Below are positions 2,800 to 62,384 of a stretch of 64,000 bases of DNA, one piece after another; the stretch's first letter is position 1; every line of letters starts with the position of its first letter. The notes under the pieces are model-generated. The model saw only the letters and a list, made by a program, of their open reading frames with translations. It had not been told where the DNA came from and searched no databases. Both the position numbers and the translations under genes were made by a program. Origin of the DNA: Eledone cirrhosa (taxonomy: Eukaryota); NCBI GenBank assembly GCA_964016885.1, contig OZ024742.1, positions 68,262,001-68,326,000 of the forward strand. The letters run 5' to 3'.

Positions 2800-2873
2800 A
2801 TTATAGAAATGACTTTAACACAACTAGTACTGTTTCATTCGTAAGAAATCATCAGAAAAGTTGTTTCTATAAT
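2800..2873 (-). ncRNA. Type I hammerhead ribozyme motif
   Basis: Minus strand reads attatagaaacaactttt-CTGATGA-tttcttacgaat-GAAACA-gtactagttg-TGTT-aaagtcatttctataat. Core, stem III (ACA/TGT) and a long interrupted stem I are present. Confidence 0.75.
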
Positions 2874-2891
2874 AACATAAATAAACAAATA

Positions 2892-4305: not shown

Positions 4306-4349
4306 ATACCGAAAACAATTGTTTCACCTTAGCGGATCTTCAGCTCGTA

Positions 4350-25004: not shown

Positions 25005-25085
<81 letters not shown>

Positions 25086-25127
25086 TTATTATATATATAT
25101 TATGTATATATATATAATGAAGTTATA

Positions 25128-27808
25128 GATTGGTTTAATAACATAAAATTAAAACATAAGAAAAAATTCATTCAAATGAATATTGCAAATTACTACTCCT
25201 CTATTACCCCTAGCTTACTTAATAAGGCACTTATCTACGCTTCTAAACATACAGACCTATCTAGTGAAGAAATGAATATAATTCTAACAGCACGTAAAAC
25301 CCTAATAGAATTTAATAATCATCTCTGGACAAGAGCCGACAGAAAAAACAATTTTGATATCACTATGGGATCATCTTACTCGGCGCAAGTAACGGACCTT
25401 GTTGGATTATTTATTATAGGAAAATCTTTGGATTATTTATGCATAGGAAAATGCCAGAGATGACCGGAGATTTATATCGCGACGATATGTTACTTTTAGT
25501 TGAAAACCATAGCAATAGTGAAATTAATAGGAAAAGGAAATACATAATACAATTTTTCAACATCTACAACCTTAATTTAGAAATCGAGAATAATTACAAA
25601 ATCGTTAACTTCTTAGATGCAACCTTAAACCTTAGCACAGGTCTTTATTATCCATTCCATAAAATTAACGAAAATCTAAATTACGTAAGTTTCAATTCTA
25701 ATCATCCTAGAAATATAAAAAACACTATTGTCAATAGCGTCCAACAACTGATTTCATGCATCTCTGCTAATAAAAATATTGTTGACGATAAGGCAGAATA
25801 TTACAATGAAGCTTTACATAGAGCAAGATACTCGAATAATTAAATACATAGATAACAATAACATGACAAATCATCCTAGAATTAATTATAATAACAATAA
25901 ACAATTTAACTTAAATACTAAACCAACCAAAAAAACTAGAACTAGAAATATAATTTGATTTGGTACTCTCCCCCATTCCCATTACGCGTTAAAACACCTT
26001 TAGCAAAGCTATTTTTTAAAGCATTAGATAAATGTTTTCATAAAGCCCACAGATACCTCTCTATTTTTAACAGACACACTATGAAACTATCCTACTCTAC
26101 TACTATGAACATAGCACAAAATATAAATAGAATTAATAATAGAAACTTAAATTTAAACCCTAACCAAACAAACCAAGATAGAAATAATAATATTTCTAAC
26201 AACAATATTCATAATAATAGTAAGGTTCCGAATAACAACAACTCCAGAAAATGTAACTGTAGAATTAAATTAAACTGCCCCTTACAAAATAATTGCTTAG
26301 ACAAAAACGTAATTCAAAGAACGCTGGTATAACCATAAACACACATTTAATAGATCCGATAAAAGAATCTTCCACTTCACTTTCACATTTAATTTGGAAT
26401 TTAAAAGATAACAATATAGACTATTCAATATCTTGTGGGAAACGATTTCGAAAGCACCTGCATACCAAAATATGGCTTTCTCAAGATTCTGTAACTTGTG
26501 TATCGAGGAAATTTTTTATATAATTAACTGTCAAAACTCTATTAATCTTCAAACAGAATTATTTTCTAGTTGCAACACCGCCAAAATTCCACTTTCAGAA
26601 GTATTTTTAATTTATGATATTCATTACACTTGACTATATCTTATACACCTTTAAAAGGATCCTATTATTTACTGAGTATTTTCTTTAAAAATTTAAATTT
26701 AAATATTTTTAAATGATCTTCCTTCTTAATTTTTAATATTTTTTAATATTTTTAATATTTTTACTATTTTTACTATTTGACATTATTTTCTTAATGACAC
26801 TCCTCTAAATATATTTTTTTAGATGTCGATTGATAACCTTTAATTGACATTCTGAAAGTTATCCTCTTTACAATAGTTTCTCGAAATGCACATTACTTTT
26901 TTTCCTCTGCTTTGATCTTCAAACTTTCACAGATCTTTCGACTAAAATAATATATAATTGAAATTAATCTCACACAAAATAATATATAATTTTCTCTATA
27001 TATCTTCTGAGTAAATCATTCATCAAATTTAACGGTTAGCAAACAATATTGGAGTTATCTTTTCCTTTTAAATCGAAACATAAACATTATATTATAATAT
27101 AATATGTATGATAAACTATATAACTTCGCTAAATTAACAATATTCTGAAAACATTTCCAATGTTGGAACAAAATATTTGAAACTAGAAATTGTTCTCCTC
27201 TTACAATTTGAACTACATGTTTTTTTATGTAAAATGCAGAATCAACATCCTTCGTAAATCATATGAGAAATGTAAACAACTAATAATTGTAACTTATTTC
27301 CATTTCTATAATACTTATACAAGCACAAATATTAATCTATATAGATATTTATATACTTACAACCTGTTGTAATGTAATAAGATAAAATCTACTTACAACC
27401 ATAATTTTTCACATAATCTAATTGATTATATATACAATATTATAACTCATAATATAGCTAAATAAATTTTAAATTCTGGAATCATATTCCACCATTCCCG
27501 CAAATTGTTAATTCCTTTTACATTATCGTAGATACAAGTGCTTCTTTCTTTTTTTCTTCTTCCTACTTATACATACATATATCCTAATTATTTAAATTCT
27601 GCATAGCGTCTAAAAATAACGTTTTTTCAGCCCTATACTTCAACCTCATTTGCATACTGATCTTAATAATTTGAAATATCTGACTTTTCTTCTCTTTTCC
27701 TTCACTATCCAGGAAGAACTTGAACAGTTAAGATATTTTTTATTTAAGTTATGTCAAAATTTATGAATCAAAATTTGTATTTTATCTGATGAGAGCGTGC
27801 CAAACTTT

Positions 27809-27812
<4 letters not shown>
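25128..27812 (+). mobile_element. 5'-truncated Penelope-like element (RT plus GIY-YIG), frameshifted
   Basis: FDITMGSSYSAQVTDLVGLFI, LYRDD, VNFLDATLNL, SNHP, WYSPPF, LSYST, CNCRIKLNCPLQNNC and CNLC; AT-rich 3' region ends in a degenerate CTGATGA motif at 27786. Confidence 0.9.
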
Positions 27813-27858
<46 letters not shown>

Positions 27859-27948
27859 ACACCAAACAATCAATGAAGAAAAGCTATTTATTAACAGATT
27901 TAAACCAGAATTAAATATGTAATCACCTCCATTAGATTCTGTTTCTCT

Positions 27949-27980
<32 letters not shown>

Positions 27981-27986
27981 CACACA

Positions 27987-28111
<125 letters not shown>

Positions 28112-28129
28112 ACCGCACTTCAAAGATAT

Positions 28130-29600
28130 TACGCACATTCCAGTAGCTTTAACAATACTAAACTAGCTAACACCACATCTTTAGCTGAAGCAGTAAATAA
28201 CTATAAAAAGAAAAAAATAGATTTCAAGCTATTGTGGAATACCATTCTGCAAAGAACTCCATATCTAGGGAACAGGAGAGAATGCAGATTATGTTCCGGG
28301 GAGATCGTGGAAATTACTAAATCTAAGGACGATTTATTGAATAAAAGACAGGAACTGATTATAGCTTGTAATCACCGTATACGAAAAACATTTAAGTACT
28401 ATAAACCTAATTAAACATTTTAAATAGCAACTCACTATAGTTCTATGTGACGTAACATTTGTTAGTATCCCCTTCCCCTAATTATACGCCTGCCTGTTTA
28501 TTTTTTTTATTTTTTAACCTTTTAATTTTTTAGCTTCCATAAATTCATGCGTTACTGACTAAGGGCATCAAGGTACATACCCACCTGTAATTGCATGGGT
28601 ATACATGTATCTATGTATGTATGATAAGAGAATATATATATATGCGTATATATATATATGTGTGTATATGTGTATGTATATGTGTATGTACATGTATGTG
28701 TGTTTAGATGTATATATGTATATATAAGTGTGTATATATATATATGTTTGTGTGCGTGTATGTATGGATTCTTATATGTTTATATCTATGTATGCGTATG
28801 TATGTTTTTAATGGAGTATCAATGTTATTATACCTCTATCTATATATGTTAATATATGTACTTTTGTGATCTAATAAAATTATGCGTTTTGACTATATGT
28901 CAACATGCATTTATCTGAGTTTGATTACTTATACATAGACCCACTTGAAAATATTTACTATTTTATAATTTATGATGCATCATACGCTATATTATACTAT
29001 ATACAATGTACCATACTGTACTATATTATATTACATTATATTATATTATTATATTATTACATTTTATTATCTTATTATAATTTTCATCTTTTAATATACT
29101 ATCCTTCCTGGTTATGACCATTACTTTACCTATCTATATTTATCCTAGTTATTTCTGTATATTTTATATTTACTTATTTATATTCACCTAATAATTCCAT
29201 ACAACACAACTCAACATTTAATTTTTACATTCCTTTCTATAAACTTCACTCCACCATCTACATTCCACTATCAATATAACAATTCCTTTTTCTTCATAGG
29301 TTCTTTATAGTAATTCTATTTTTAACACCATTCAACCATTCCTTTCAAAGTGTCATGACCTTAACTAAAGTGAGTTATATTTCATCTTAACATCATATGG
29401 CAAAAAAACCATTTGATTGGTTTGTTCTTCAGCTACCTCCAAATAAGGTCATAGAACTCAATTTACTATTGATTTTGAATAAAATGTTGTGCTTTTGACA
29501 ACGACTGATGATATACATGTAGGTAAATATATTCCTTATTTGATATTTTGTAACTAACCCTACATAGATCGATAACGAAATATGCGTACGATGTATTATT
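28130..29600 (+). mobile_element. PLE 3' fragment (GIY-YIG C-terminus, 3' UTR, HHR)
   Basis: ORF 28232-28414 (W...PY...CRLC..E..EI...LLNKRQE...CNH) is homologous to the C-terminus at 40007; an HHR lies at 29498-29594. Confidence 0.75.
29498..29594 (+). ncRNA. Hammerhead-like motif with extended stem II
   Basis: acaacga-CTGATGA-tatacatgtagg...cctacatagatcgataac-GAAA-tatgc-GTA-cgatgt. Confidence 0.5.
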
Positions 29601-33694: not shown

Positions 33695-33890
33695 CAATAT
33701 CAAATGGTGATGTTACATACGAGGAAGTTTCGTTTACATATGAAAAATATGTATTGCGTATCGCCCTGTTACGCGCTTTTCGCAGAGGATTGGCTCAAGG
33801 TGACCCATAGAAGTTATGGACCTGACTCCAGTATCGATCTGCTCGTCAGACTGATGGTGTAATAAAAGATATATTTTTGTGATATATATA

Positions 33891-34786
33891 CGAGGGGGGT
33901 CAGAAAGGTTCCAGGACTGATGTCACAAAAGATTTATTTCAAACCCAAACTTCACACTAAGAGTTTTCTCCTTCAAAGTAATCCCGCTGGAGTCAAATGC
34001 ACTTTTCCATCCTTTTCTGCCACGCTTGCATGCACTCCTGGAAGGATTCTTCCGGGATCCTCTGCAGTTCCGTCGTCACGGCCTTTTAGGTGTCGTCCAC
34101 GTCTTCAAAACGGGTCCCCTCCGGGTCGTACTCGAAGATCCATGGCGCATCACCAGTGATGACTGTCCCTAGCAAGTCTGGTTCGGTTTCAAGACGCTCG
34201 AGGATGTCCTGGCACACTTGCATGCGTCGATCCTTCTGGTCATCGTTCACCAGTTTTGGCACCATCTTCGCGCAGACTTTCCGCATGTCCAAATCTTCAG
34301 TGAGAATCTTCCAGACGCTGTCCCTATTCATGCCCAGCTCATTTGCCATCAGTCGAACTGTCAGCCGACGATCGCTATGCACCATCTGCCTGACGCGCTC
34401 AACGTTGACCTCAGTCCTGGTTGTTGAGGGCCTTCCGCTCCTGGGGTCATCTTCCACGTCCTCGCGTCCTTCTTTAAACCTCCTGCACCACTCAAAAACA
34501 CGTGAGCGTGACATCGTCTCATCTCCATACACTTGCTGCAGCAATCCCAGTGCTTCTAGCGGAGTTTTCAAGTTTGTTCGTTACTCTGTGCTCATTGCTT
34601 GACGACCTGAAACAGAGGACATGTAAATAAAATTATGAAGGAAAAGATTTGATCGCTGCAGAGAGTTAAGATTACAGTTACATACTCCAGAGGGATTACT
34701 TTGAAGGAGAAAACTCTTAGTGTGAAGTTTGGGTTTGAAATAAATCTTTTGTGACATCAGTCCTGGAACTTTTCTGACACATCTCG
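33891..34786 (-). mobile_element. Internally deleted mariner element with ~100-bp TIRs and TA TSD
   Basis: TA|CGAGG...CTCG|TA ends. ORF 34086-34571 carries the mariner HTH domains (VYGDETMSRSRVFEWCRRFKEGREDVEDDPRSGRP), VPK and ITGD; the catalytic core is deleted. Confidence 0.92.
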
Positions 34787-35299
34787 TATATATGTGTTTG
34801 TGTGTGGCACACTAAAGGTGGTAAGATCAGGAAAAATTATACATCGTTTAATTATTCAGTGAACTTACAAATTATTGAGCTAATTAGTGGTTACGTTAAA
34901 GCGTCGCTATGATAACATTGATTAATACTTAATAGTGTTGTACAGAAATGCATTACGAAATTGTTAAACAGAAGCAGCTTCTATGATGATAGCAATATAT
35001 AAAGTTGAATTACGTGGATCTTTAATTATAATTAAAGACAAACTGCTTGGAAGTAATCTGAGAATAATTTAAGTTGGTCAAATACATTAGTATTGGTTAA
35101 GTTACAGGTGTATGTTGATAAACGCATGTGTATATCTTACTTAAATATTAAATATTTACTTGCATGGCTGTGTTATGTAAGTAGTTCACTGGAAAAACGC
35201 GTTGTACGGAGATCGTTTTCACTGCGCAGTACTTTAGAGATCTTCTAACATAGTATCTGGTTGGTGATGCCTTTTTAATTTGCTTATTTGTTTCTAATG

Positions 35300-43096: not shown

Positions 43097-43423
43097 TATG
43101 CATATGCAGATTCTACTTCTGCGGGTTCTTTCAGACACGGGTGTTATGTCCGGAGCAAATTTTATCACTGGGGTGTTATCATCAAAACAACACCCTCAAA
43201 AAACCCTCTTTCTACTTTTGTCATGCCATTGGCTGTTTTTACTCCACGTCATCACAAGTTCTGGTCATTATCTGCTGCCACACGGTTCATCAACCATTTT
43301 CCGTCCGACACATTTTTCGTTTCCTTTATAATATCTACACTCTACTCTGATGAATATCGAGTGCTAATTTTGGCATACCGCCTACAGAAGCACCATAGCT
43401 ACCACTATACACAAATATATATA

Positions 43424-43490
<67 letters not shown>

Positions 43491-43584
43491 ATATATAGGT
43501 ACGTTATTCCGGGTTGAATCGGAGGTAACCACAGTAAGTAAGGTACTCAATACATAGCAGAATATAAAAGTTTTAATATAGATG

Positions 43585-43635
43585 AGATTCTACAGGACTA
43601 GAACTGTTTCATTCTTTAGAAATCATCAGGAATCT
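43585..43635 (-). ncRNA. Type I hammerhead ribozyme
   Basis: Minus strand reads AGATTC-CTGATGA-tttctaaagaat-GAAACAG-ttctagtc-CTGT-A-GAATCT: perfect 6-bp stem I, 4-bp stem III and a GUA site. Confidence 0.85.
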
Positions 43636-44145
43636 GGGTATCAACAAATAAATATGGTATTTATAGGTCTCTTCGGCTGGTAGGAGAGGGTAGGGAGTGG
43701 GATGAGTAGAGGTCATTGGTTGATAGAAAAGGAAATTCATTAAAAGCTAATTCTTTAAAGCTATAATTTATATTTAGAGTGACAAAGGCAGAAAGAATTC
43801 TATAAACAAGTTCAGAATGGGGTGCCACTCCTTATTTTTAAGTTTCTCTTAAGCTAACAATGCCTATATTTCAGGTGTCTATAAGATCGTTGGGGGTCAG
43901 TTATGGTTGATGGATTTAAAGAAAAGGGAAATTCTTTAAAAGCTAATTTTTTAGGTTCTACTTAGAGTGACAAAGGCCTAGAGAATTCTATAGACCAGTT
44001 CAAAATATTGAGTGCCTATCACACCATTATCTTCAAGTTTCTCTTAAGCTATATTCCAAATGTCAACAGACACATTCACAAACACACACACTCACACACA
44101 CATATATACATATATATATGTATATATATACATATATACATATAT

Positions 44146-44244
<99 letters not shown>

Positions 44245-44254
44245 CAAAATTAAG

Positions 44255-44797
44255 ATAAATCAAATGAATTTAGTCTAAATCAAAATTATGGGTGTCATGC
44301 CAGAAAGACATGCGCCATATCACGCGCAAAATAAGCTCTAAGATTCTAACGAGTAGGTCCGAGCATTTTATAATAACTAGAAATTGATTAACATATAAAT
44401 AAACATGACTCGACTGCTGTTTCTAGTGTTCGATAACCCTATTCACGCCACTGGGACGAAGCTAGTATGATGTGTGTATTTCTAGTAAATATAGCACGTG
44501 TTGCTGGTCAGTCGCTTATTTGAACTTGAAGTGTAAACACGGATCGCTGGAACTTCTTCCTTGTTGAAAACCCAAGTCTCCACTTCCGTGGTTTACCATC
44601 CGATTAATTGGGGAAATATATTTCTTTAATGGAATATATACAGGGAAGATTAATCATATTATAAGGTATCTATTTTTGAAGTTCTGGTCAACTTTATTTA
44701 GTTACCTACCTAGCTATGTGTGGTTACACACTTGTAAAAATTATCTCCTGTGATTATTCATGTTTATTTATATGTTAATCAATTTCTAGTTATTATA
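44255..44797. mobile_element. Non-coding PLE-pLTR-like element with internal inverted repeat; related to 47088-48355
   Basis: 44370-44409 pairs with 44758-44797; the body aligns by eye with 47880-48220. Confidence 0.7.
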
Positions 44798-44822
44798 TAT
44801 ATATATATATACATATATATGC

Positions 44823-44863
<41 letters not shown>

Positions 44864-44898
44864 CATACACACACATACACACATATATACATACACAG

Positions 44899-44963
<65 letters not shown>

Positions 44964-45112
44964 CACATACATATACATATACACACATATACACACACAC
45001 ATACACATTTATATATACATATATATATATATATACACATACCCACATACATACACATATGTATATACACCAATATACACATATACACGTATGCATACAT
45101 ATATATATATAT

Positions 45113-45182
<70 letters not shown>

Positions 45183-45274
45183 ACAGACATACACACATAC
45201 ATACATATACACATACACATATATATACATATACATATATATATATATATACATACACACATGTATATATATAG

Positions 45275-45960
45275 CTTTTTTAGTTATTGCTCGCACCAAT
45301 TTGAGGTATATGATTTTTAATGCGATGAAATACCAATGCTGGTTGGCAAATCACTGACGAGGGACTAATTTTATCATATGTAACCTATGTGCAACCACGC
45401 AGTATTCTTCTTTCTTCTCGTGTTTTTTATACATATTTACCTCGGCTGCGTTTGTCTGTTTCTTTCTTACTGCTTCCCCGTTCTCTCTGTTTTTCTCACC
45501 TTCTTTCGCCCCCTCTGTCAGTTACACTTTCTCTCGACTGACCTCTTCCTCGCACTTCCACTCACTGACTCTCTGTTTCTCCCCTTCTCACTTCCTCCCG
45601 TTTGGCTAGTAGTGGGGTCTTTTCTTGCTCACATCTCACTCACGTCGGACGGTCTGTACCTTGATCGCTCATGAAATCCACCCAGATTATGCTGACCGGA
45701 TAACCATGTTGCTTGTTTATTTTCCTATCTTCGGTTTGCTTTTATCCTTCTATGTTGTTTACTCGTCTCACTCGCTTTACGCGATTTACCTGTCCCAATA
45801 ACTTTTTTTAGTTATTGCTCGCACCAACCTGAGGTATATGATTTTTAATGCGATGAAATATCAATGATGGTTGGCAAATCACTGAAGAGGGACTAATTTT
45901 ATCACATGTAACCCATGTGCAACCACGCAGTATTCTTCTTTCTTCTCATGTTTTTTATAT
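45275..45960 (+). mobile_element. Non-coding element with ~155-bp terminal direct repeats
   Basis: 45275-45432 is repeated at 45805-45960, and each repeat carries CTGA(C/A)GA. A third copy is inverted at 54945-55122. Confidence 0.75.
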
Positions 45961-46002
45961 ATATATATATATATACATATACATACATATATATACATAT
46001 AC

Positions 46003-46045
<43 letters not shown>

Positions 46046-46108
46046 TATACACATATATACACACATATATACACAAACATTCACATACCTACATATATAC
46101 ATAAATAC

Positions 46109-46173
<65 letters not shown>

Positions 46174-46234
46174 TATATGTATATGTATCTATATGTGTGT
46201 ATATGTATATATATATATTTATATATATATATAA

Positions 46235-46425
46235 CGATACGATCGACTTTAGTCAAATCGGACCGAGGGAACAATGTTTCCGTTGGTCTTTCCAATTGCT
46301 TGGTAGAAGGAGCAACGTGAAATAAAGTGTCTTGCTCAAGGACATAACGCATCGCCTGGTCCAGGAATCGAACTCACAACCTTACGATTGCGAATCCAAT
46401 TCTCTAACCACTCAGCCACACGCCT

Positions 46426-46428
<3 letters not shown>
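46235..46428 (-). mobile_element. tRNA-derived SINE, second family
   Basis: Reverse complement of 8662-8856, with an intact head (ggcgtgtggctgagtggttagagaattgg...gagttcgattcctgg). Confidence 0.85.
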
Positions 46429-46488
<60 letters not shown>

Positions 46489-46495
46489 GTATATG

Positions 46496-46564
<69 letters not shown>

Positions 46565-46621
46565 ATGTGTGTATATATGTATATATATGTGTATATGTGT
46601 GGATATGTGTATATGTGTATG

Positions 46622-46652
<31 letters not shown>

Positions 46653-46757
46653 GTGTATGTATGTGTATATGTATGTATATATGTGTATATATATATATGT
46701 GTGTGTATATGTATATGTATGTATATATGTATATATATATATGTGTATATATATATG

Positions 46758-46837
<80 letters not shown>

Positions 46838-47064
46838 TGTTATACTTGGGAGGGTCATGTTGCCAATAAGAAACACACGCACCAGTTGCTTTCACTTCAA
46901 TTTATTATATATTTATAAATTTATAAATTTACAAATCTACAAACTTATAAATTTCTGGTTGGTTGTGGAACCAACCAACCAACCAGAAATTTATAAGTAT
47001 AACAATATCGTTTTCAACACACGATTTCAGATAAAGAATCTTGCTAAACAAATTCAGAAACGAA

Positions 47065-47087
<23 letters not shown>

Positions 47088-47096
<9 letters not shown>

Positions 47097-48353
47097 AAAT
47101 ACATGAATAATCACAGGAGATAATTTAAGCTTGCGTGTAACCGCGCATAGCTAGTTTAGGCAATATTTACCTTTAAGAGTGATTAATATTCCTTGTATAT
47201 ATCCCATTAAAGAAATATATTTCACCAATTAATCAGATGGTAAATCACGGAAAGTGGATATTATTGGATTGTCAACAAGGAAATAGATAATTATCCAGCT
47301 ATTCGAGCTTACAGAGCGAGATCAAATCTTCAACTATCCGCTACCACAAGATAGCGCTTTCCTTTCATTGGCGTGAAAAGGTATTCGACAACTAGAAATA
47401 GCAGTCAAAATTCTTCTCAACAGAAATAGCTCTACAATTAAGGAGCCGTATATATATATCTAAGTCCAAAATATTAATTGATTAATTGATTAATTGATTA
47501 ATTGATTAATTGATTAATTGGTGAAATATATTTCTTTAATGGGATATTTCTTTAATGAAATATATTTCTTTAATGGGATATATACAAGGAAAGTTAATCA
47601 CTCTTAAAGGTAAATATTGCCTAAACTAGCTATGCGTGGTTACACGCAAGCTTAAATTATCTCCTGTGATTACTCATGTATTTTTATGTTAATCAATCTC
47701 TAGTTATTATAATATGCTCAGATGTATTTATCTTTGAGCTTAAATTCTCAGGATTTATGGCGCATGCATTATGTCATGACACTGATGATTTCGATTTAGA
47801 TTAAATTCATTTATCTTAATTTTGGACTTAGATATATATACGGCTCCTTAATTGTAGAGCTATTTCTGTTGAGAAGAATTTTGACTGCTATTTCTAGTTG
47901 TCGAATACCTTTTCGAAAACGCTATCTTGTGTGGACGCAACACGTGGTAGCGGATAGTTGAAGATTTGATCTCGCTCTGTAAGCTCGAATAGCTGGATAA
48001 TTATCTATTTCCTTGTTGACAATCCAATAATATCCACTTTCCGTGACTTACCATCTAATTAATTGGTGAAATATATTTCTTTAATGGGATATATACAAGG
48101 AAAGTTAATCACTCTTAAAGGTAAATATTGCCTAAACTAGCTATGCGCGGTTACACGCAAGCTTAAATTATCTCCTGTGATTATTCATGTATTTTTATAT
48201 GTTAATCAATCCCTAGTTATTATAATATGCTCAGATGTATTTATCTTTGAGCTTAAATTCTCAGGATTTATGGCGCATGCATTATGTCATGACACCCATG
48301 ATTTCGATTTAGATTAAATTCATTTAATTCATTTATCTTAATTTTGGACTTAG

Positions 48354-48355
<2 letters not shown>
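47088..48355. repeat. Inverted plus tandem array of a ~530-bp non-coding unit
   Basis: 47088-47472 is the reverse complement of ~47820-48200; 47515-47835 repeats 48060-48355; (ATTGATTA)n sits at the junction. Confidence 0.85.
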
Positions 48356-48389
<34 letters not shown>

Positions 48390-48465
48390 ATGTGTGTATG
48401 TGTATATGTATGTATGTGTATGTATGTATATATGTATATATTTGTGTATGTATTTATTTATTTTT

Positions 48466-48498
<33 letters not shown>

Positions 48499-48659
48499 AA
48501 TAAATAAATACATACACAGATATATACATATATACATACATACACATACATACATATACACATACACACATACACACACACATATATATATATACATATA
48601 TATACACATATATATATACACATATATATATATATATACATATATACATACATATACAT

Positions 48660-48710
<51 letters not shown>

Positions 48711-48841
48711 TATATACACATATATACATATATATACACATACATATATATATATGTGCATATATATATATATATATATATATACATACACATATACACA
48801 TATCCATACATATACACATATATATACATATATACCCACAT

Positions 48842-48898
<57 letters not shown>

Positions 48899-48917
48899 CA
48901 TATGTATACATATATAT

Positions 48918-48975
<58 letters not shown>

Positions 48976-49069
48976 TTACACACATATATATATATATATA
49001 TATATACAAATAAGTACTCATAAATATACGCATTTACACAGGCACATATAAACAGCTCTACAGGCAGAA

Positions 49070-49835
49070 AATGCAGATAGGTAAGAGGTACTCACATAAC
49101 CATAGTGGCCGTATTTCAGGTTGAGGATGTATGGATTTGGGGTGGGAAGGAGGTAGAGGGCTAAAAGGAGGAAGTCGTTTTTAGCCATCGGGCATTAACA
49201 CTGGCTATTTGAAAGTTGCAAAGCTCTTTTGCATGCAGTTCGGGCAGTGTTCAGAGAGTTTGTTTAGTAGCGGGCCCTTGGCGAATAAAATTTCATAGCT
49301 CTCTGAGATACAAAGGTCGCACCCTTGTGTCCTCCGTTGTAAGAGCGCGCTTTCTGGAGTATTTTCCATTTAAACGTGAAGGGGGTGGAGTTCCTTTTGA
49401 GGTCCCAAACATAGGAGGCGAGTGTTGTCTTGTTTGATTTGTCTGGTCTTCTGAAGGAGTGGGTATGGGCATACCAACGGGTCTTATTGGAAGTCATGCC
49501 GATGTAAGTCTTTTTGTTATTGCAATCATCGGTGCCTGAGATGACATCGCATTTGTATACGATATCATTTGTCAGGCATTTGTTTTCAAGTGGGCAGGCT
49601 TCCTTATTTAGGCAATTACACAAGGCCCCAGTCCGGGGATTGGGTTCGGAGGTGGTTGGTTTATTTAATTTTTTAGAATTGTGGTTGGCTATATTCCTAG
49701 CTAGGTTAGGTGTGGTGGAGTAGGAGAGTCTTATTGTGTTCTTATTAAAGATGGTGTAGTACCTATGTTGTATGGGGAAGTGTGTTTTCAGCAAAGTGAA
49801 GAAAATCCTAGCTATCGGTGTAGAGCTATAAGTAG
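49070..49835 (-). mobile_element. PLE 3' fragment (GIY-YIG domain)
   Basis: ORF 49264-49878 contains HRYYTIFNKNTIRLSYSTTPN, CNCLNKEACPLENKCL, YIGMT and TTLASYVWDLK. Confidence 0.88.
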
Positions 49836-50181: not shown

Positions 50182-50302
<121 letters not shown>

Positions 50303-50653
50303 CGTGCGTGTGTGTGTGTTTGTGTGTATATATGTATATATATATATATAAACGGAAAAAATGAAACGAAATTTTATTTCTCACTCTTAGTACGGCTGTT
50401 ACTTAAATATAAGTATGTATACGTACATACATATATGTATACAGACGTACAGTAGTATGTATATTTATATATATATATACATACATGCACACATATATAT
50501 ATATATGTACGTATGCATTCACCGAACATTTATTATAATGCACGGTGTGTTTGTAAACAAACATCCCGAATTAAGCCGTACAGTGTCTAGCAACCATCGT
50601 TGCTCATTTGTTCAACACTGACAAAGACGTTCAACAATCTGGCAGGAAGGTAT

Positions 50654-50696: not shown

Positions 50697-50961
50697 TCCT
50701 TTGAAGGAAAGAATAAGCTTAAGAGAAACTTAAAAATAAGGAGTGGCACCCCCATTCTGAACTTGTTTATAGAATTCTTTCTGCCTTTGTCACTCTAAAT
50801 ATAAATTATAGCTTTAAAGAATTAGCTTTTAATGAATTATATATGTATATATATATGTATATATATGCATATATTTATATATATATATATATATACATGT
50901 ATACATGTATATGCATATATTTATATACATATATGCATATATTTATATATATGTATATATT

Positions 50962-56798: not shown

Positions 56799-59700
56799 CT
56801 ACAGGATGGTATACAGAGAAGGCCCATTTACACGAGCCATTCTCGCCACTATCACCCACCTTTCATAAAACTGCCTGTGGCCAAGCACCTCTCTCTCCAT
56901 TCTTATCCTTCTTCCGAAGTGATATCGGAAGAAGTAGACCAGACTATGGCCAGAGAGGAAGTTGCCTGACCTCAGACCTTTCAATCGTGTCCACCAAACA
57001 ACCTCTTTCAACATGGCTATTACGCACAGAAAAACCGCCTTTGCTTCCTTTGTGAAGAGGGGAGGCGGTTTGATTGTCATCACGGACTCGGCTGTCAATT
57101 TAATCGGCGCCACCCGCGACAGCAGTTGTTCGGCGTAGCCCCACAGATCAGCCACGCCCGGACATTGCACCAATGCGTGCGCCACGGTTTCTTCGTGACG
57201 CACGCATCTAGGGCAAATCTTTTTTGAGGGATCCCTGCCCGGGCGCCCGTGTCTGTAGAGCCTCTCTCGAACGGGTAGAGCCCCTCGGTAGCACTGCCAG
57301 GCCAGTGACTTCTGGAAGTTGTCCATTGGTCCTGGGCCGAAAGTCCTACCGAACAGGCTGGCCAGTTCGTCTTCTTCCATGTCCAGCGACTCTCCAAGGG
57401 TGTCATCGCCCCTGCTAGCCACCAGCCCTCTATAGAATGATGAGGTGGATTCTCCACCGATGGCCCGGCCCGCTTGCCAGAGAGCCCTGAGCGCCTGAGC
57501 ACATTCAGTGTGCCAGTCTCCCAGTTTTCCGGATCTTTGCTTGACCCAGGACTGTAGCTCGGTGAGTGAGACGAGTCTCGGAAAGGCTCGTTTCACGAAC
57601 GGAGCCCACACCGGTTGACCAGTGAGGAATACCTGTAGGTGCCGTAGCCTTAATGCGTGCCTACGCATCATCAACCACGGCATCCCCAGCCCTCCTTTCG
57701 AAGGTTGTTGGCAGCAGATGGATCTTCTCACCATAGGAGGACGCTTCTTCCAAAGAAATTGGAAGAGCATGCGTTCCATGGTGGTGAGTGTTTCCTTAGG
57801 GCAAGGCACGACAGTCAGGCGGTAGTAAGTGACGGACGCTATGTAAATGTTCGCCACCTCCGCCCGGCCTTTTAGGGACAGCTTACACTTGGCCCATTTC
57901 TGGGTTAGTGCAAACACCTTGTTCGTAACCTCGTTCCAGTTCTTTTCCACCTGGAGGTCCGGTCCAAACCAGACCCCAAGCAACTTTACCGGGCCCTCCG
58001 TCCAGTGTCCGACGACACCATCGGGAGGCATCGGTCTGCCTCTCCACGTTCCGAGTTGCAGCCCGATGGATTTTTCCCGGTTCAGTTTCGCTCCTGACAA
58101 CCTTTCGTACTCCTCCAGTAAGGTACCGATCGCCTCGATCTCCGAGTCGGTTGATACCATTACTGTTACGTCATCGGCGTAGGCCGACACCGCTTTGCTC
58201 AATCCTGGTTCCAGGGGGATACCCTGCAACAACTCCAACTTCCTCAGTAAAGGCTCGAGAGTCAATACGTACAGAAGGGAGGAGAGAGGGCACCCCTGTC
58301 GAATGGATCGTGTGATTTCGAACGGCTTCGAAAGGTAGCCGTTCACCTTGATCCTAGAACAGATGTGGTTGCTATGTAGGGCAGTGATCCAGCCTCTGAA
58401 AACAGGACCGAACCCAGCCGCCGCTAGCACCGCATCCAGGTAACCATGGTCGACCCTATCGAAGGCCTTAGACTGATCCAAGTTGATCAGGGCCCCACCG
58501 AAGCCGGGTTTGTTGCCAACCCTCTCTATGATGTATCGCATGAGGTGGAGGTTATCGTGAATGGACCTGGATGGGATAGCACATGTCTGCGCATCTCCCA
58601 CCAGGCCACCCACGACAAGCGCCAACCTCTTTGCTAACACCTTGGCCAAAATCTTTAACTCTGTGTTTAGCAGGGTTATGGGCCGAAAATTATTTATACT
58701 ATCCCCCTTGTTCTCGTCCTTCCTCACCAGCGTGACTACGCCCTTGGCTACAGAACAAGGAATTCTCCCGTTCTGCTGCCAATTGCAGTAGACCGCTTCG
58801 AGGAGTTCGGAGAAGAAGACCGGCATTGCTAAATAAAGTTCGTAAGGTATACCATCGAGACCTGGAGATTTGCGTCTGCTGCATTGGCTCAGCGCATCTC
58901 CGATCTCATCAGCCGAGATTGGTCCCTCGCAGGACTCCGCCTCTTTGTTCGAGAGACGCGGCAGGCCGTCGAGGTATGGACCGAAATCCACGCCCCGGCC
59001 CGGACCCTCGCCTCCCCCGAACAATCGGGCAAAGTGCTTTTGAAAGGCCTCGCACATCTGCTTAGGCTCCCGGATCACTCGTCCATCTTCGTCTTGCAAC
59101 GACCGGATGGTGGATCGATTTCCACTTTTAGCTTCTGTCACGCGGGCCCATCCAACGGCTTTGGCCCCCTCATTACCTAGAGCACGTATTTTACTTCGAA
59201 TGACGCAGCCTTCATGCTTTGCATCGAAAAACTGGTTCAAGGCCGTCCTCGATGCCAGCACTCTGGCCACATCTTCGCTCTTGATTGCCTCTTCTAATTT
59301 ACCTGTTAATTCTTTCTCGTTTCTATTCCTATTGGCAGCTAACATCTTGCTATAACTTATTGATTCTGTTCTAATCTCTCTTTTGAGAGATGCCCACCAT
59401 CGGTTGTTGACGATTGCACCCGTCAACCTCTCCTTAACTAATCTGCTAATCCGGTTTCTGTAAGTCTCTTTTGCCGGTAAAGACAAATTAAGTTTCCAGT
59501 AACCGGGACCCTGTCTATGTGTTTTCTCGAGATTGACCACGCAGGTCACTAATTTGTGATCCGTGTAGCCAACCGTGCGCATTTCTGGACAGCTTAATAT
59601 GTCCCTATCCTTACTTCTAACTAAGAATCTATCTAAGTACGATCTAGATTGACCACTGTGGTTTCTCCAAGTCCAGGTAGGCACAGTTGGAAAATCTAGT

Positions 59701-60236
59701 CGATATCTATCGACCAAGTTAAAACGGTCGAGTAACCCCTTGAGGCTGTTACACCCCCCTCTATTAGGACATGCTCCTGCATAGTCCCAACGTGCATCTA
59801 GGATGTCATTCCAATCCCCCGCTAGAAGCAGGGAACGCGACGTTCCCAGAAAAGTCTCCAAACGCTGGAAGAAGTCGGGCCGTTCAGCTCCGAAAGGGGA
59901 GTAGACGGCGACCAGTCTCAAGGCCGCACTTTCACTACTGCCAACGTCTAGCACCAACAAACGACCCTCCGGGTCCGAGTGCACAACCTGTACGGCAAGA
60001 CCCAGGTGTTTTTGCAGCAGCACGACAACCCCACCCCCACCTCCAGGTTGACAGAGAGATGCATGCACCTCAAAGTCATCGAAGGTGGGGGCCAGCTGCC
60101 GCATGACGCTGATTCGAGTCTCACAGATAACCATTACATTTATACTACATGACCTGAGGTCATTTAGAAGCTTTGCTTGCTTCCAAGTTGAGCCCAGGCC
60201 ACGTGCATTCAAACATCCTACTCTTAACACATCCAT
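56799..60236 (-). CDS. LINE ORF2: APE endonuclease, reverse transcriptase, C-terminal CCHC zinc finger (1145 aa)
   Basis: LNARGL, ET, GDWN, LDRF, TDH (APE); KSPGLDG, RPITLLN, DQSKAFD, RQGCPLS, YADD (RT); CPRC..ETVAHALVQC. Confidence 0.96.
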   Translation of the reverse strand: MDVLRVGCLNARGLGSTWKQAKLLNDLRSCSINVMVICETRISVMRQLAPTFDDFEVHASLCQPGGGGGVVVLLQKHLGLAVQVVHSDPEGRLLVLDVGSSESAALRLVAVYSPFGAERPDFFQRLETFLGTSRSLLLAGDWNDILDARWDYAGACPNRGGCNSLKGLLDRFNLVDRYRLDFPTVPTWTWRNHSGQSRSYLDRFLVRSKDRDILSCPEMRTVGYTDHKLVTCVVNLEKTHRQGPGYWKLNLSLPAKETYRNRISRLVKERLTGAIVNNRWWASLKREIRTESISYSKMLAANRNRNEKELTGKLEEAIKSEDVARVLASRTALNQFFDAKHEGCVIRSKIRALGNEGAKAVGWARVTEAKSGNRSTIRSLQDEDGRVIREPKQMCEAFQKHFARLFGGGEGPGRGVDFGPYLDGLPRLSNKEAESCEGPISADEIGDALSQCSRRKSPGLDGIPYELYLAMPVFFSELLEAVYCNWQQNGRIPCSVAKGVVTLVRKDENKGDSINNFRPITLLNTELKILAKVLAKRLALVVGGLVGDAQTCAIPSRSIHDNLHLMRYIIERVGNKPGFGGALINLDQSKAFDRVDHGYLDAVLAAAGFGPVFRGWITALHSNHICSRIKVNGYLSKPFEITRSIRQGCPLSSLLYVLTLEPLLRKLELLQGIPLEPGLSKAVSAYADDVTVMVSTDSEIEAIGTLLEEYERLSGAKLNREKSIGLQLGTWRGRPMPPDGVVGHWTEGPVKLLGVWFGPDLQVEKNWNEVTNKVFALTQKWAKCKLSLKGRAEVANIYIASVTYYRLTVVPCPKETLTTMERMLFQFLWKKRPPMVRRSICCQQPSKGGLGMPWLMMRRHALRLRHLQVFLTGQPVWAPFVKRAFPRLVSLTELQSWVKQRSGKLGDWHTECAQALRALWQAGRAIGGESTSSFYRGLVASRGDDTLGESLDMEEDELASLFGRTFGPGPMDNFQKSLAWQCYRGALPVRERLYRHGRPGRDPSKKICPRCVRHEETVAHALVQCPGVADLWGYAEQLLSRVAPIKLTAESVMTIKPPPLFTKEAKAVFLCVIAMLKEVVWWTRLKGLRSGNFLSGHSLVYFFRYHFGRRIRMEREVLGHRQFYERWVIVARMARVNGPSLYTIL

Positions 60237-60269
60237 GTGGGCGGCAGAGCCAAAGGAGAGTGTAGAGAC

Positions 60270-62147
60270 CTACCTTTCCGCTTCCCGGGGTTCGGGTTGC
60301 ACGACTTCCATGGGGTTGGGGGTGTTGGGTGAAGGGGTGTCTTGTGGTGGTGTGGGGTCGTCGGTGTGTGGTGGGGTTGGGGTGTTTGGAGTTGTGTTGG
60401 GGAGGGGAAGGGGAGGGGGAAAGCTTTTTAGTAGGACGCGGTTTATGGGTTTGACAGAGGGTGGTCCTACGTCCTCCTTAAAATCCTTTTTTAGTTTTTG
60501 GTAGAGGTTCATTGGGATTTTTATTAGTTTTAAATGTGGGTGGTTTTCTGATGAAACAAAGTTTACACCTTCGGTTTGTACCGAAGGATTATTGTATATG
60601 AGTTCATTTAATTTATTATTGTTTCTGTTGATGTAAGTATAGTGTAATGTCTTTTTTTCCGATGGTGTGAGTGTTTCGAAGAGGGGAGGGGCAGGTTTGG
60701 TTTTGTTTGTTGCTGGAGGGGTGTTTTCTGTTTTGTTAGATTGTGTTGCGATTTGGGTGGGGGTTGTTTGTCCTTGTGTGTTTTGCACATGTTTTCTTTT
60801 TTTCCTTTTAATCTGTCTGAAGGACTCCGTTTCTTCCTCCGAATTCGTTGGGTTATCTTCAGTGTTGGAGGGAAGAGGTATGTTTGCTGGTAATGTTTCC
60901 GTGTTGGTTTTCTTTGTGGGGGAGATGGATGTCACTATGTTAGACTGTGTTGTGTGTTGTGTCTGCGGTGGTTGTGTTGTTTTATTGAGTGAGAGGTTGG
61001 GTGGGCCTGTATTTTGTTTTGGGGTAATGTGTTGTGACTGTTTGTGTTGTGGTGGTGTTGTGGTGTTACTGAGGGACGGGTTGGGTGGGACTGAGTTTTG
61101 TTGTTTGTTTATCTGTTGTGGTGGTGGTGGTGGAGCTGGTGTTGGTAGCAGGGTTTTCTTTTTGTTGAGTTGGGGACAAGCGGCCTTCAGGTGCCCTCTG
61201 CCTGCACAGATATGGCAGGACGGCCTTCTCCCCTCCACGCTAATGTTTATATACCCGTGGTCCTCTAATAGGATTCTGTCGGGTATTTGGGCGATGCGTT
61301 CAGGCTTCATTTGTACTACCAGCTCTATACCTGTTCCACTGAACGCATTGCCTGTGGTTTTCCCAATGGAAATCACGTTGTCATTCACTGGATCGATGAA
61401 GCCAGCTATGAGCCAGCAGTAGTCCACATCTGGCATCATTGCATCCAGCCATATGCGTTGAGTTTTTTTTCCCATATAAGATGGATAAAAGGTGAAATTT
61501 TTCGAACGAATCGGTGACAAAGCACATTTTTTTGCCGCTGATTCGTTCTTCATGATAATTGCTAGGCTTCCATACAGTCTGTCTTTTCTTATGAAAGTTG
61601 TTTCATTCAGTACTTCTGCGAGTACTGTTTTGATATCTGCTTGAGAAGGCTGTTCAGGTTTTTTTGTACTGTTGTTGATGGTCCGAAACTTGACCGTTCG
61701 GCTTTCAATGTCTTTCGTGAATTCTTGAGGCATTTTTACCAATAAAATACCATTCTCACCTTCACTTATGTATTGTTTTGCGTCCGTGATCCTTCGTACC
61801 ACATCTGAAATGTTTTCCGCTATATAAGTCAAAGATTTCTTTGTTTTCTGTGCAAATGAAATCTTGTCGTCTGCTTTGTTTTCTGATATTATGTTATTTT
61901 CAACTGTTATTTTTTTGTTTGTTGTGTCTTTGTTTGTGTTATTAGTATTGTCATGCAATTTTTCAAATTTTTTTTCTTCGTTGTTTTCGACATTTAATTT
62001 TTTCTCCGCAGATTCGTCCGTTTTTATTTTCATTTTTCCTTCCTTCTCTATGACGTTAGTTGGGAAGGAAGGGAGGACTAAAGCGTGCGAGCTTACAACT
62101 CTTACCGCTGTCCCCCCACCACTATTTTCGTTCGCTGCGTTTAACAT
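60270..62147 (-). CDS. LINE ORF1: gag-like nucleic-acid-binding protein (625 aa)
   Basis: CHICAGRGHLKAAC zinc knuckle followed by a long P/T/Q/N-rich tail; lies directly upstream of ORF2. Confidence 0.9.
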   Translation of the reverse strand: MLNAANENSGGGTAVRVVSSHALVLPSFPTNVIEKEGKMKIKTDESAEKKLNVENNEEKKFEKLHDNTNNTNKDTTNKKITVENNIISENKADDKISFAQKTKKSLTYIAENISDVVRRITDAKQYISEGENGILLVKMPQEFTKDIESRTVKFRTINNSTKKPEQPSQADIKTVLAEVLNETTFIRKDRLYGSLAIIMKNESAAKKCALSPIRSKNFTFYPSYMGKKTQRIWLDAMMPDVDYCWLIAGFIDPVNDNVISIGKTTGNAFSGTGIELVVQMKPERIAQIPDRILLEDHGYINISVEGRRPSCHICAGRGHLKAACPQLNKKKTLLPTPAPPPPPQQINKQQNSVPPNPSLSNTTTPPQHKQSQHITPKQNTGPPNLSLNKTTQPPQTQHTTQSNIVTSISPTKKTNTETLPANIPLPSNTEDNPTNSEEETESFRQIKRKKRKHVQNTQGQTTPTQIATQSNKTENTPPATNKTKPAPPLFETLTPSEKKTLHYTYINRNNNKLNELIYNNPSVQTEGVNFVSSENHPHLKLIKIPMNLYQKLKKDFKEDVGPPSVKPINRVLLKSFPPPLPLPNTTPNTPTPPHTDDPTPPQDTPSPNTPNPMEVVQPEPREAER

Positions 62148-62384
62148 TTCTGTTAGACGATTGAAATTTTTTACACAAAATTTTTTTTTTTAAAACAGGT
62201 TTTTCACCTCTAGGAGGGGTAAAGATGAGCTGACCCACCGCCTGACAGTTCAGACGGAGGGTCAAGCTACACAATTGTATCAAAATTAAGTTTGAACTCA
62301 TAAAATTTCCTCAATAAATTTGAACAAAACTTCTGTGCGAAGTGAATGACATCCACACTGTAGAACAGACGACAGCTAGATTAT

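What the first reader, a model, noticed from the sequence alone, without database searches (positions are those of the whole stretch)
43500..43640. Best-formed HHR, related to a second HHR 40 kb away
43585-43635 has a perfect stem I and stem III and a GUA site. The motif at 2800-2873 shares 'CTGATGATTTCT.A.GAATGAAACAGT.CTAGT' and a downstream 'TATTGAGT.CC' box, but its stem I has a different sequence that still pairs. Structure conserved over sequence suggests selection for function. Neither copy is attached to an ORF.
Basis: partly seen in the sequence, partly recalled or inferred. Interest (0 to 1): 0.7.

Follow-up and report, generated by a model that had tools for sequence, protein, structure and literature searches.

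The report
Hammerhead opens a Penelope transposon's RNA
This hammerhead-shaped motif is the end piece of a very common Penelope-type jumping gene, and the ends of its copies suggest that the gene's RNA likely starts exactly at the motif and is likely copied into DNA mostly uncut, which bears on the open question of what these predicted self-cutting RNAs do.

Summary
The type I hammerhead at 43585-43635 (minus strand) is real and the predicted cut site (43591/43590) is correctly placed. It is not an orphan. It lies in the terminal repeat (pLTR) of a young Hydra-clade Penelope-like retrotransposon: 21,028 exact core matches in the genome, and 5 of 5 full elements fetched read HHR-713-aa ORF-HHR. 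The window copy is the 3' end of a truncated element whose endonuclease-coding end lies 5.6 kb upstream. Stem I covaries between subfamilies, but copy 2 is poor evidence: its long outer helix is an inverted duplication and its stem III is damaged.

Less expected: copies begin at the first base of stem I (23 of 59 within 12 nt; 4 of 59 at the cut), 30 nt after a TATA box, usually with an extra G. This suggests a capped RNA that starts with the ribozyme and is copied uncut. A 376-kb satellite of 78-bp units of this hammerhead also exists. Cutting and the RNA start are untested. Earlier scan notes reported Hydra-clade stubs elsewhere in this genome. New member of a known kind.

The parts
43585..43635 (-). 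HHR1, type I hammerhead: stem I 43635-43630 with 43590-43585; core 43629-43623; stem II 3 bp over U.U; stem III 4 bp with an 8-nt loop holding a CTAG palindrome; GUA 43593-43591
43658..43665 (-). TATA box (label recalled), first base 30 nt upstream of the first base of stem I; 43635 is the inferred RNA start
   Evidence: the same spacing (35-36 nt to the core) in 39 of 43 TATA-bearing sites
43542..43553 (-). Conserved TATTGAG box in a predicted hairpin downstream of the cut site
   Evidence: a similar GTATTGAG box stands downstream of the HHR in published Hydra-2_Amil
43497..44240 (-). 3' end of the element: distal 3' UTR and pLTR, ending about 90 nt past the cut site in a (TA)n run
44241..48360 (.). 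Other repeats that interrupt the element's microsatellite-rich 3' UTR (not matched by family copy L033; likely later insertions)
48361..49824 (-). 5'-truncated body of the same element: ORF end (CxCX5C linker, GIY-YIG part; frameshifted near 49325) and proximal 3' UTR
   Evidence: 86-90% amino-acid identity to the intact 713-aa family ORF; 82% DNA identity to L033 1-1315
50716..50838 (+). Inverted piece of the pLTR, 99.2% identical to 43734-43855; likely the 5' inversion of the same insertion
2811..2861 (-). HHR2, decayed copy of an older subfamily: core 2855-2849, GUU site 2819-2817, stem III with a G.G mismatch, stem I with a bulged U
   Evidence: nearest other genome copies are 81-86% identical
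2862..2884 (-). Inverted duplicate of the sequence downstream of HHR2 (fold-back), which makes the long outer helix
   Evidence: read; compare L038
2722..2810 (-). pLTR tail of HHR2 with the TATTGAG box (2770-2760), ending in a (CA)n run

Best explanation
Both motifs are hammerheads in the terminal repeat of Hydra-clade Penelope-like retrotransposons, and the element's RNA likely starts, capped, at the first base of the hammerhead and is likely reverse-transcribed mostly before the hammerhead cuts. Shown: the HHR stands 175 nt before the start codon of a 713-aa RT/GIY-YIG ORF and again at the element's 3' end; copies end at two fixed points (about +20 and +90 from the cut) in TA repeats; short copies begin at the first base of stem I, usually with an extra G; a TATA box lies 30 nt upstream. 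Inferred: RNA polymerase II starts there. The element's protein nicks (TA)n, primes internally about 65 or 135 nt from the cap, runs off the RNA's 5' end and adds a C opposite the cap. The cDNA then folds back or joins a second arm, giving the abundant stubs. Long copies such as the window's would come from priming in the 3' repeat of an uncut RNA, or from a jump to the RNA's other end. The ribozyme is predicted to be slow or conditional (weak stems II and III; palindromic loop III suited to a dimer). Cutting would remove the capped 45-nt leader and trim the 3' end, a processing or off switch rather than a step needed for insertion.
For: Family and position: 22 of 30 best ORF-start copies have the core 174-175 nt upstream; 5 of 5 full elements HHR-ORF-HHR; RWR, DKT, YRDD, CxCX5C, CxxC and CxH motifs. 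The U after CUGANGA and the U before GAA are also written unpaired in many published Hydra-clade HHRs. 5' ends: 23 of 59 main-subfamily copies start at -47 to -36 from the cut, about 2.4 expected from the rate downstream; only 3 of the 18 that pass -48 stop in the next 83 nt. 28 of 29 sites with foreign upstream sequence keep at most the 6 nt of stem I. Extra G: 78 of 93 junctions at that base against 10 of 21 at a control base inside the HHR (hand counts from the first 100 rows; Fisher p = 0.001); 13 of 15 TA-flanked junctions. A second, unrelated family in the window shows the same boundary at its stem I, G in 21 of 31. TATA spacing is kept in four subfamilies whose spacer sequence differs. 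In vitro, an anole Poseidon element primes internally and uses uncut RNA (PMC11167929).
Against: No RNA data: neither the start site nor cutting was observed. The control base also shows G in 10 of 21 junctions and 2 of 5 TA-flanked ones; the TA-only comparison is not significant (p = 0.07) and neither is the second family against this control (p = 0.16). So part of the G excess is general non-templated addition, and some Gs at fold-back junctions are templated by the inverted arm. The two arms of one fold-back were both counted. The second family has no TATA box at -30. The boundary follows a pyrimidine-rich stretch and CAG, as a splice acceptor would. 4 of the 30 ORF-start copies begin 1-11 nt past the cut, so cut RNA may sometimes be the template. 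The 90 sampled copies all come from the first 43 Mb of one contig.
Confidence: 0.68

Rival explanations
1. The boundary is a 3' splice site: an intron ends at the start of stem I, as in Drosophila virilis Penelope, and copies stop where the spliced RNA leaves the genomic sequence.
For: CAG at or near the boundary in the subfamilies read and in the second family, with pyrimidine-rich sequence upstream. In D. virilis the intron end maps to the 5' end of helix I (PMC4209133).
Against: Junctions keep the AG, which splicing would remove, and what precedes them is TA repeat, the inverted arm or varied letters, not a shared exon.
Confidence: 0.1
2. The boundary is made by structure, not by the RNA end: the cDNA folds back where stem I or the small CAG..CTG palindrome allows self-priming.
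For: 20 of the 23 copies that start at -47 to -36 are fold-backs. Some junctions are exactly such hairpins, and HHR2 is a stem-I-primed fold-back.
Against: 14 of 15 TA-flanked junctions checked have no fold-back yet start at the same base, 13 of them with an extra G. Many fold-backs have foreign letters between two arms that both stop at that base.
Confidence: 0.1
3. The motif no longer cuts; its shape is kept as a protein-binding or promoter-linked element.
For: The active fold is not the minimum-energy fold and stems II and III have pair probabilities of 0.04 or less. Copies are made from uncut RNA. Published metazoan PLE hammerheads cut poorly, and 8 of 9 Xenopus dimers did not cut.
Against: Catalytic letters, both short stems and the GUA site are kept across subfamilies whose ORFs are about 75% identical, while loop II varies. 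An axolotl HHR with a U.U at the base of stem II cuts, weakly as monomer and better as dimer.
Confidence: 0.1
4. The two motifs are ORF-independent ribozymes, either host-recruited or members of a non-autonomous retrozyme family.
For: Most copies are short and carry no ORF (3 of 90 sampled run into the ORF); HHR2 has no ORF beside it; a tandem array of the motif exists.
Against: HHR1 is collinear with its own ORF end. Short copies match the pLTR of intact elements. Neither window copy is tandem. No host conservation was tested or seen. HHR2's coding partner was not found, so its link rests on similarity to the HHR1 repeat.
Confidence: 0.02

Closest known systems
Hydra clade of Penelope-like elements, including Hydra-1_Obim (Craig et al. 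2021, PMC8557442; passages, section 11 and supplement parts 1, 2 and 52 of 59 read)
   Same: C-terminal GIY-YIG, RW(K/R), DKT, CxCX5C, CxxC and CxH motifs, (TA)n insertion, type I HHR in the pLTR with unpaired U on both sides of stem II, ACAG/CTGT stem III with a GUA site as in Penelope-1_NV and -1_SK.
   Different: A different family from Hydra-1_Obim (N-terminus and HHR differ, compared by eye). Loop III is 8 nt with a CTAG palindrome, against 1-3 nt in all listed Hydra HHRs. Elements are 4.8-5.7 kb from HHR to HHR with a 2.5-3.4 kb microsatellite-rich 3' UTR, against 'generally <3 kb'. No RNA start is given for Hydra elements in what I read.
Minimal PLE hammerheads (Cervera and de la Pena 2014, PMC4209133; parts 1-2 of 4 read)
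   Same: HHR in both pLTRs; mostly solo or opposite-strand pairs from truncated elements; palindromic loop III; dimer model; low activity expected.
   Different: Here stem II is short (3 bp) and stem III long (4 bp), the reverse of min-HHRs, and there is no G10.1-C11.1 pair.
PAc/Poseidon of Anolis (Frangieh et al. 2024, PMC11167929; parts 1-2 of 4 read)
   Same: Two internal priming sites downstream of the HHR, AT-rich targets, uncut RNA as the main template.
   Different: Different clade; there the ORF starts inside the HHR, here 130 nt past the cut. That paper does not map the RNA 5' end in the parts read.
Animal non-LTR retrozymes (PMC7229834, passages; bioRxiv 10.64898/2026.07.22.740005, parts 1-3 of 5)
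   Same: The C28 array is a tandem repeat of a pLTR-derived type I HHR, as their origin model proposes; 78 bp lies within their 51-972 bp range.
   Different: The window copies are not tandem. The array has about 4,800 units against a reported maximum of 300, and a 32-unit higher-order period that points to DNA-level growth.

Membership tests
Type I hammerhead ribozyme | CUGANGA and GAAA core, NUH site, three helices with helix I open | tested here: met
   HHR1; stem II is 3 bp over a U.U. HHR2 meets the core and site but has a stem III mismatch.
Type I hammerhead ribozyme | Compensatory changes in the helices | tested here: met
   Stem I only: 2 pairs and 4 cells with both sides changed, 1 of 500 shuffles as high, on 9 hand-picked related rows, two of them misaligned by a bulge and three from fold-back contexts. 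Stems II and III never vary in that alignment, so they say nothing.
Type I hammerhead ribozyme | Rfam hammerhead model at gathering score | tested here: not met
   Best match Hammerhead_3, 19.2 bits against 48.5; none among the 150 of 206 window matches listed.
Type I hammerhead ribozyme | Self-cleavage at the NUH site | not testable with these tools
   Needs in vitro transcription.
Hydra-clade Penelope-like element | Single ORF with RT and C-terminal GIY-YIG between two pLTRs with HHRs | tested here: met
   5 of 5 fetched elements, 713 aa, two HHRs each; Pfam GIY-YIG only weak, E 0.13, at residues 598-623.
Hydra-clade Penelope-like element | RWK-type motif, DKT, CxCX5C linker, CxxC and CxH around conserved E and N | tested here: met
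   RWR at 38 (R for K), DKT at 116, CxCX5C at 566, CxxC at 666, CxH at 694.
Hydra-clade Penelope-like element | Insertion into (TA)n | tested here: met
   76 of 90 sampled 3' ends run into TA repeats.
Hydra-clade Penelope-like element | Grouping with published Hydra RTs in a tree | not tested
   The published sequences were only readable as text; the assignment rests on motifs.
Non-LTR retrozyme (window copies) | Tandem non-coding units each with an HHR | tested here: not met
   Both window copies are single.
Non-LTR retrozyme (C28 array) | Tandem units with intact HHRs | tested here: met
   175 of 333 sampled units structurally intact.
Non-LTR retrozyme (C28 array) | Expressed as monomer or circular RNA and spread by retrotransposition | not testable with these tools
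   No RNA run; only one other small array with the same junction was seen.

The most novel reading that the evidence does not exclude
In these Penelope-like elements the hammerhead is the first 51 nt of a capped RNA, and a large share of genomic copies are strong-stop-like cDNAs that ran from an internal priming site to the cap on uncut RNA. The genome thus records the transcription start and shows that cutting is not needed for insertion; the ribozyme would act as a decapping and trimming switch. The same motif has also seeded a 376-kb satellite made almost only of hammerheads.
Probability: 0.55. Interest if true: 0.6.

Novelty: new member of a known kind. Interest (0 to 1): 0.42.

Why it matters
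Hammerheads in Penelope-like elements are known, but their role and the origin of the terminal repeats and 5' inversions are open; the papers read call the function unclear. This family has intact copies and thousands of junctions. If the RNA starts at the ribozyme and is copied uncut, that gives in vivo support for internal priming on unprocessed RNA, explains the back-to-back hammerhead stubs, and names exact positions for CAGE and cleavage tests. The satellite is a direct case of a pLTR ribozyme turning into a large tandem repeat.

Tried and rejected
Rfam over the whole window returned microsatellite-driven miRNA matches only among the rows listed. The repeat finder was swamped by microsatellites. 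I first took the Penelope-like ORF pieces at 42351-40010 as HHR1's partner; rejected, they are 35-44% identical to the family protein and have their own repeat. An exact 33-nt search for HHR2 found only itself. No coding partner was found within 1.5 kb of the 13 HHR2-like loci (of 30) in which the script found a core. Pfam did not recognise the RT. Expression: no RNA holder listed. Contig depth steps up near stem I, but the runs are of unknown kind and subfamily divergence confounds it, so it was not used; only the 78-nt joint was taken as a lead. One alignment row had wrong coordinates and one search was set aside. Selection within the satellite: difference rates per site were 0.027 in the core, 0.033 in stem I, 0.039 in stem III and 0.035 in loop III, so no clear sparing of the core; units are not independent. 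Literature searches: searches found no paper with the terms for a Penelope start site, TATA or untemplated G; searches showed no description of this family or array in their listings. Most subscription papers are not searched, and the preprint's supplements were not seen.

Full report
Observation. On the minus strand, 43635-43585 reads as a type I hammerhead: stem I of six pairs, CUGAUGA, a three-pair stem II above a U.U, GAAA, a four-pair stem III with an 8-nt loop, and GUA at 43593-43591. The second motif (core 2855-2849) shares the core and the downstream TATTGAG box. The active fold is not the predicted ground state (-4.2 against -7.6 kcal/mol), the z-score against shuffles is -0.27, and Rfam gives only a sub-threshold hammerhead match.

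A high-copy repeat. A 26-nt core pattern has 21,028 exact matches in the 3.0-Gb genome, control 0. A 14-nt piece across the cut site has 44,535, control 4. Some of these lie in one satellite (below). The organism was not given; earlier scan notes call the genome octopus-like, which I did not test.

The repeat is the pLTR of a Hydra-clade Penelope-like element. Of the 30 best matches to the ORF start, 22 have the core 174-175 nt upstream of the start codon, one has it with a core change, and seven are truncated. Five of five elements fetched in full have an intact 713-aa ORF between two hammerheads 4.8-5.7 kb apart, with RWR, DKT, YRDD, CxCX5C, CxxC and CxH motifs. These are the features that define the Hydra clade. 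Of 90 sampled 3' ends, 76 run into TA repeats. Many published Hydra hammerheads have the same unpaired U on each side of stem II and some the same ACAG/CTGT stem III, but loops III of only 1-3 nt. I built no tree.

The window copy has its ORF. A family copy (L033) matches the window at 49666-48403 and again at 44229-43406, on the same strand and in order. The ORF piece at 49848-49184 is 86-90% identical to the intact protein. Other repeats fill 48360-44240. An inverted piece at 50716-50838 is 99.2% identical to 43734-43855. HHR1 is therefore the 3' end of a 5'-truncated, interrupted element. The nearer ORF pieces at 42351-40010 belong to another family (35-44%).

Copy 2. Its nearest relatives are 81-86% identical, an older subfamily. 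Against them it has a GUU site and a G.G mismatch in stem III. Its upstream 23 nt are an inverted duplicate of its downstream sequence (read), so the long outer helix is an insertion product. No coding partner was found beside the 13 of 30 relatives searched.

Selection. In native context the stem I arms differ between subfamilies and still pair: A-U against C-G at pair 4, A-U against G-C at pair 6. Older subfamilies appear to carry a bulged U and a further change at pair 5, but these were read mostly from fold-back contexts. On nine hand-picked rows, two pairs show changes on both sides, 1 of 500 shuffles as high; this is about three events among relatives, not a formal test. Among 142 distinct sites, stem II is unchanged in 129, loop III in 109 and the stem III-site letters in 128, while the commonest loop II has only 47 (the pattern fixed part of the core). 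The stem III-loop III piece pairs with a second copy at -12.8 kcal/mol against -1.4 for the hairpin, which fits the published dimer model.

Where copies begin. I took the first 90 of 12,082 matches to the downstream box, kept the 65 with the main-family tail and then the 59 of the main subfamily. Twenty-three start at -47 to -36 from the cut (stem I begins at -45), about 2.4 expected; four start within 3 nt of the cut; only 3 of 18 that pass -48 stop before -130. Of 29 core-complete sites with foreign upstream sequence, 28 keep at most the six bases of stem I. A TATA box starts 29-30 nt upstream of that base in 39 of 43 sites that have one, across four subfamilies. Genome-wide, 2,139 sites have a non-native letter before that base, against 389 at a control base, most of the latter point mutants. 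In the first 100 rows, counted by hand after removing native-context mutants, that letter is G in 78 of 93 junctions against 10 of 21 (p = 0.001). In TA-flanked junctions it is G in 13 of 15 against 2 of 5 (p = 0.07). An unrelated family found at 4343 shows the same boundary, G in 21 of 31, with no TATA at -30 but with NRF1-like and ETS-like motifs just upstream (labels recalled). An added C opposite the cap is a recalled property of reverse transcriptases; my searches for a citation found none. The control shows that this enzyme also adds G elsewhere.

Where copies end. Of 70 main-subfamily sites, 33 end at +13 to +22, 33 at +86 to +94, one between, and three continue into the ORF. This agrees with earlier scan notes and with two internal priming sites shown in vitro for an anole element, which also used uncut RNA. 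A hairpin is predicted just beyond each end.

Mechanism. Shown are the positions, counts and motifs above. Inferred: a capped RNA starts at stem I; the protein primes internally at TA nicks; run-off at the cap gives the short stubs and fold-backs; long copies come from the 3' repeat or a template jump. Because the copies span an intact cut site, the template was mostly uncut, so the ribozyme is likely slow or conditional. Rivals are a splice acceptor at the boundary, structure-driven fold-back, and loss of catalysis. No RNA evidence was available.

The satellite. Contigs of public runs showed a joint that makes a 78-nt unit. The junction has 1,703 matches, all on one strand; 98 of the first 100 lie in one region of contig C28. 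Twelve samples from 30,497 to 30,873 kb are array and the sample at 30,877 kb is not: at least 376 kb and about 4,800 units if continuous. Of 333 units sampled, 85 are identical to HHR1 and 175 are structurally intact, with no clear sparing of the core. One sample has a 2,497-bp period at 99.8% identity, which points to growth at the DNA level. The array starts beside an inverted pLTR end, and an eight-unit array with the same junction lies on C1. The largest array in the retrozyme preprint has 300 units.

Verdict. The feature is a new member of a known kind, the pLTR hammerhead of a Hydra-clade element. The reading of two ORF-less ribozymes is wrong. The value lies in the record of the RNA start and of uncut templates, and in the satellite; I found neither in the papers searched.

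Noticed in passing
G000:C28:30,496,900-30,873,000 (L159-L168, L239, L240): Satellite of 78-bp units, each a copy of HHR1; at least 376 kb, 2,497-bp higher-order period in one sample, about half the sampled units structurally intact.
   Followed up: partly
L173:1255-1850 (G000:C1, 350.2 Mb): Eight-unit array with the same 78-bp junction on another contig, without TA flanks.
   Followed up: partly
window 4352-4245 (-): A third hammerhead stub from an unrelated family (CUGAAGA core, palindromic stem III, GUU site); its relatives often lie near Hydra-like ORF pieces and also begin at stem I.
   Followed up: partly
window 43010-39216 (-): Another Hydra-like element with inverted 5' pieces. Its repeat has a GAAAC-stem III-GUA half core but no CUGANGA in the 95 nt upstream, in 20 of 20 near-identical copies.
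   Followed up: partly
window 25005-28414 (+): Decayed pieces of a further Hydra-like ORF, 33-41% identical to the HHR1 family protein.
   Followed up: no
window 43330-43400 (+): A CTGATGA followed by a palindrome but no GAAA; did not fit the canonical scan and may be a decayed or rearranged hammerhead.
   Followed up: no
window 50243-50580: A short repeat that also stands at the 5' side of other copies of this family (L032, L034, L095); possible shared target or template switch.
   Followed up: no
window 56799-62189 (-): Non-LTR retrotransposon with two long ORFs; the 1,156-aa one has endonuclease, RT and zinc domains.
   Followed up: no
window 33884-34793: Mariner-like transposase piece between 110-bp inverted repeats.
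   Followed up: no
listing: Many dispersed copies have G in place of the C at position 15.2, which breaks a stem III pair; possibly a sub-lineage that spread with a damaged ribozyme.
   Followed up: no
window 14939-35424: At least eight pieces of another dispersed repeat, some with internal duplications.
   Followed up: no
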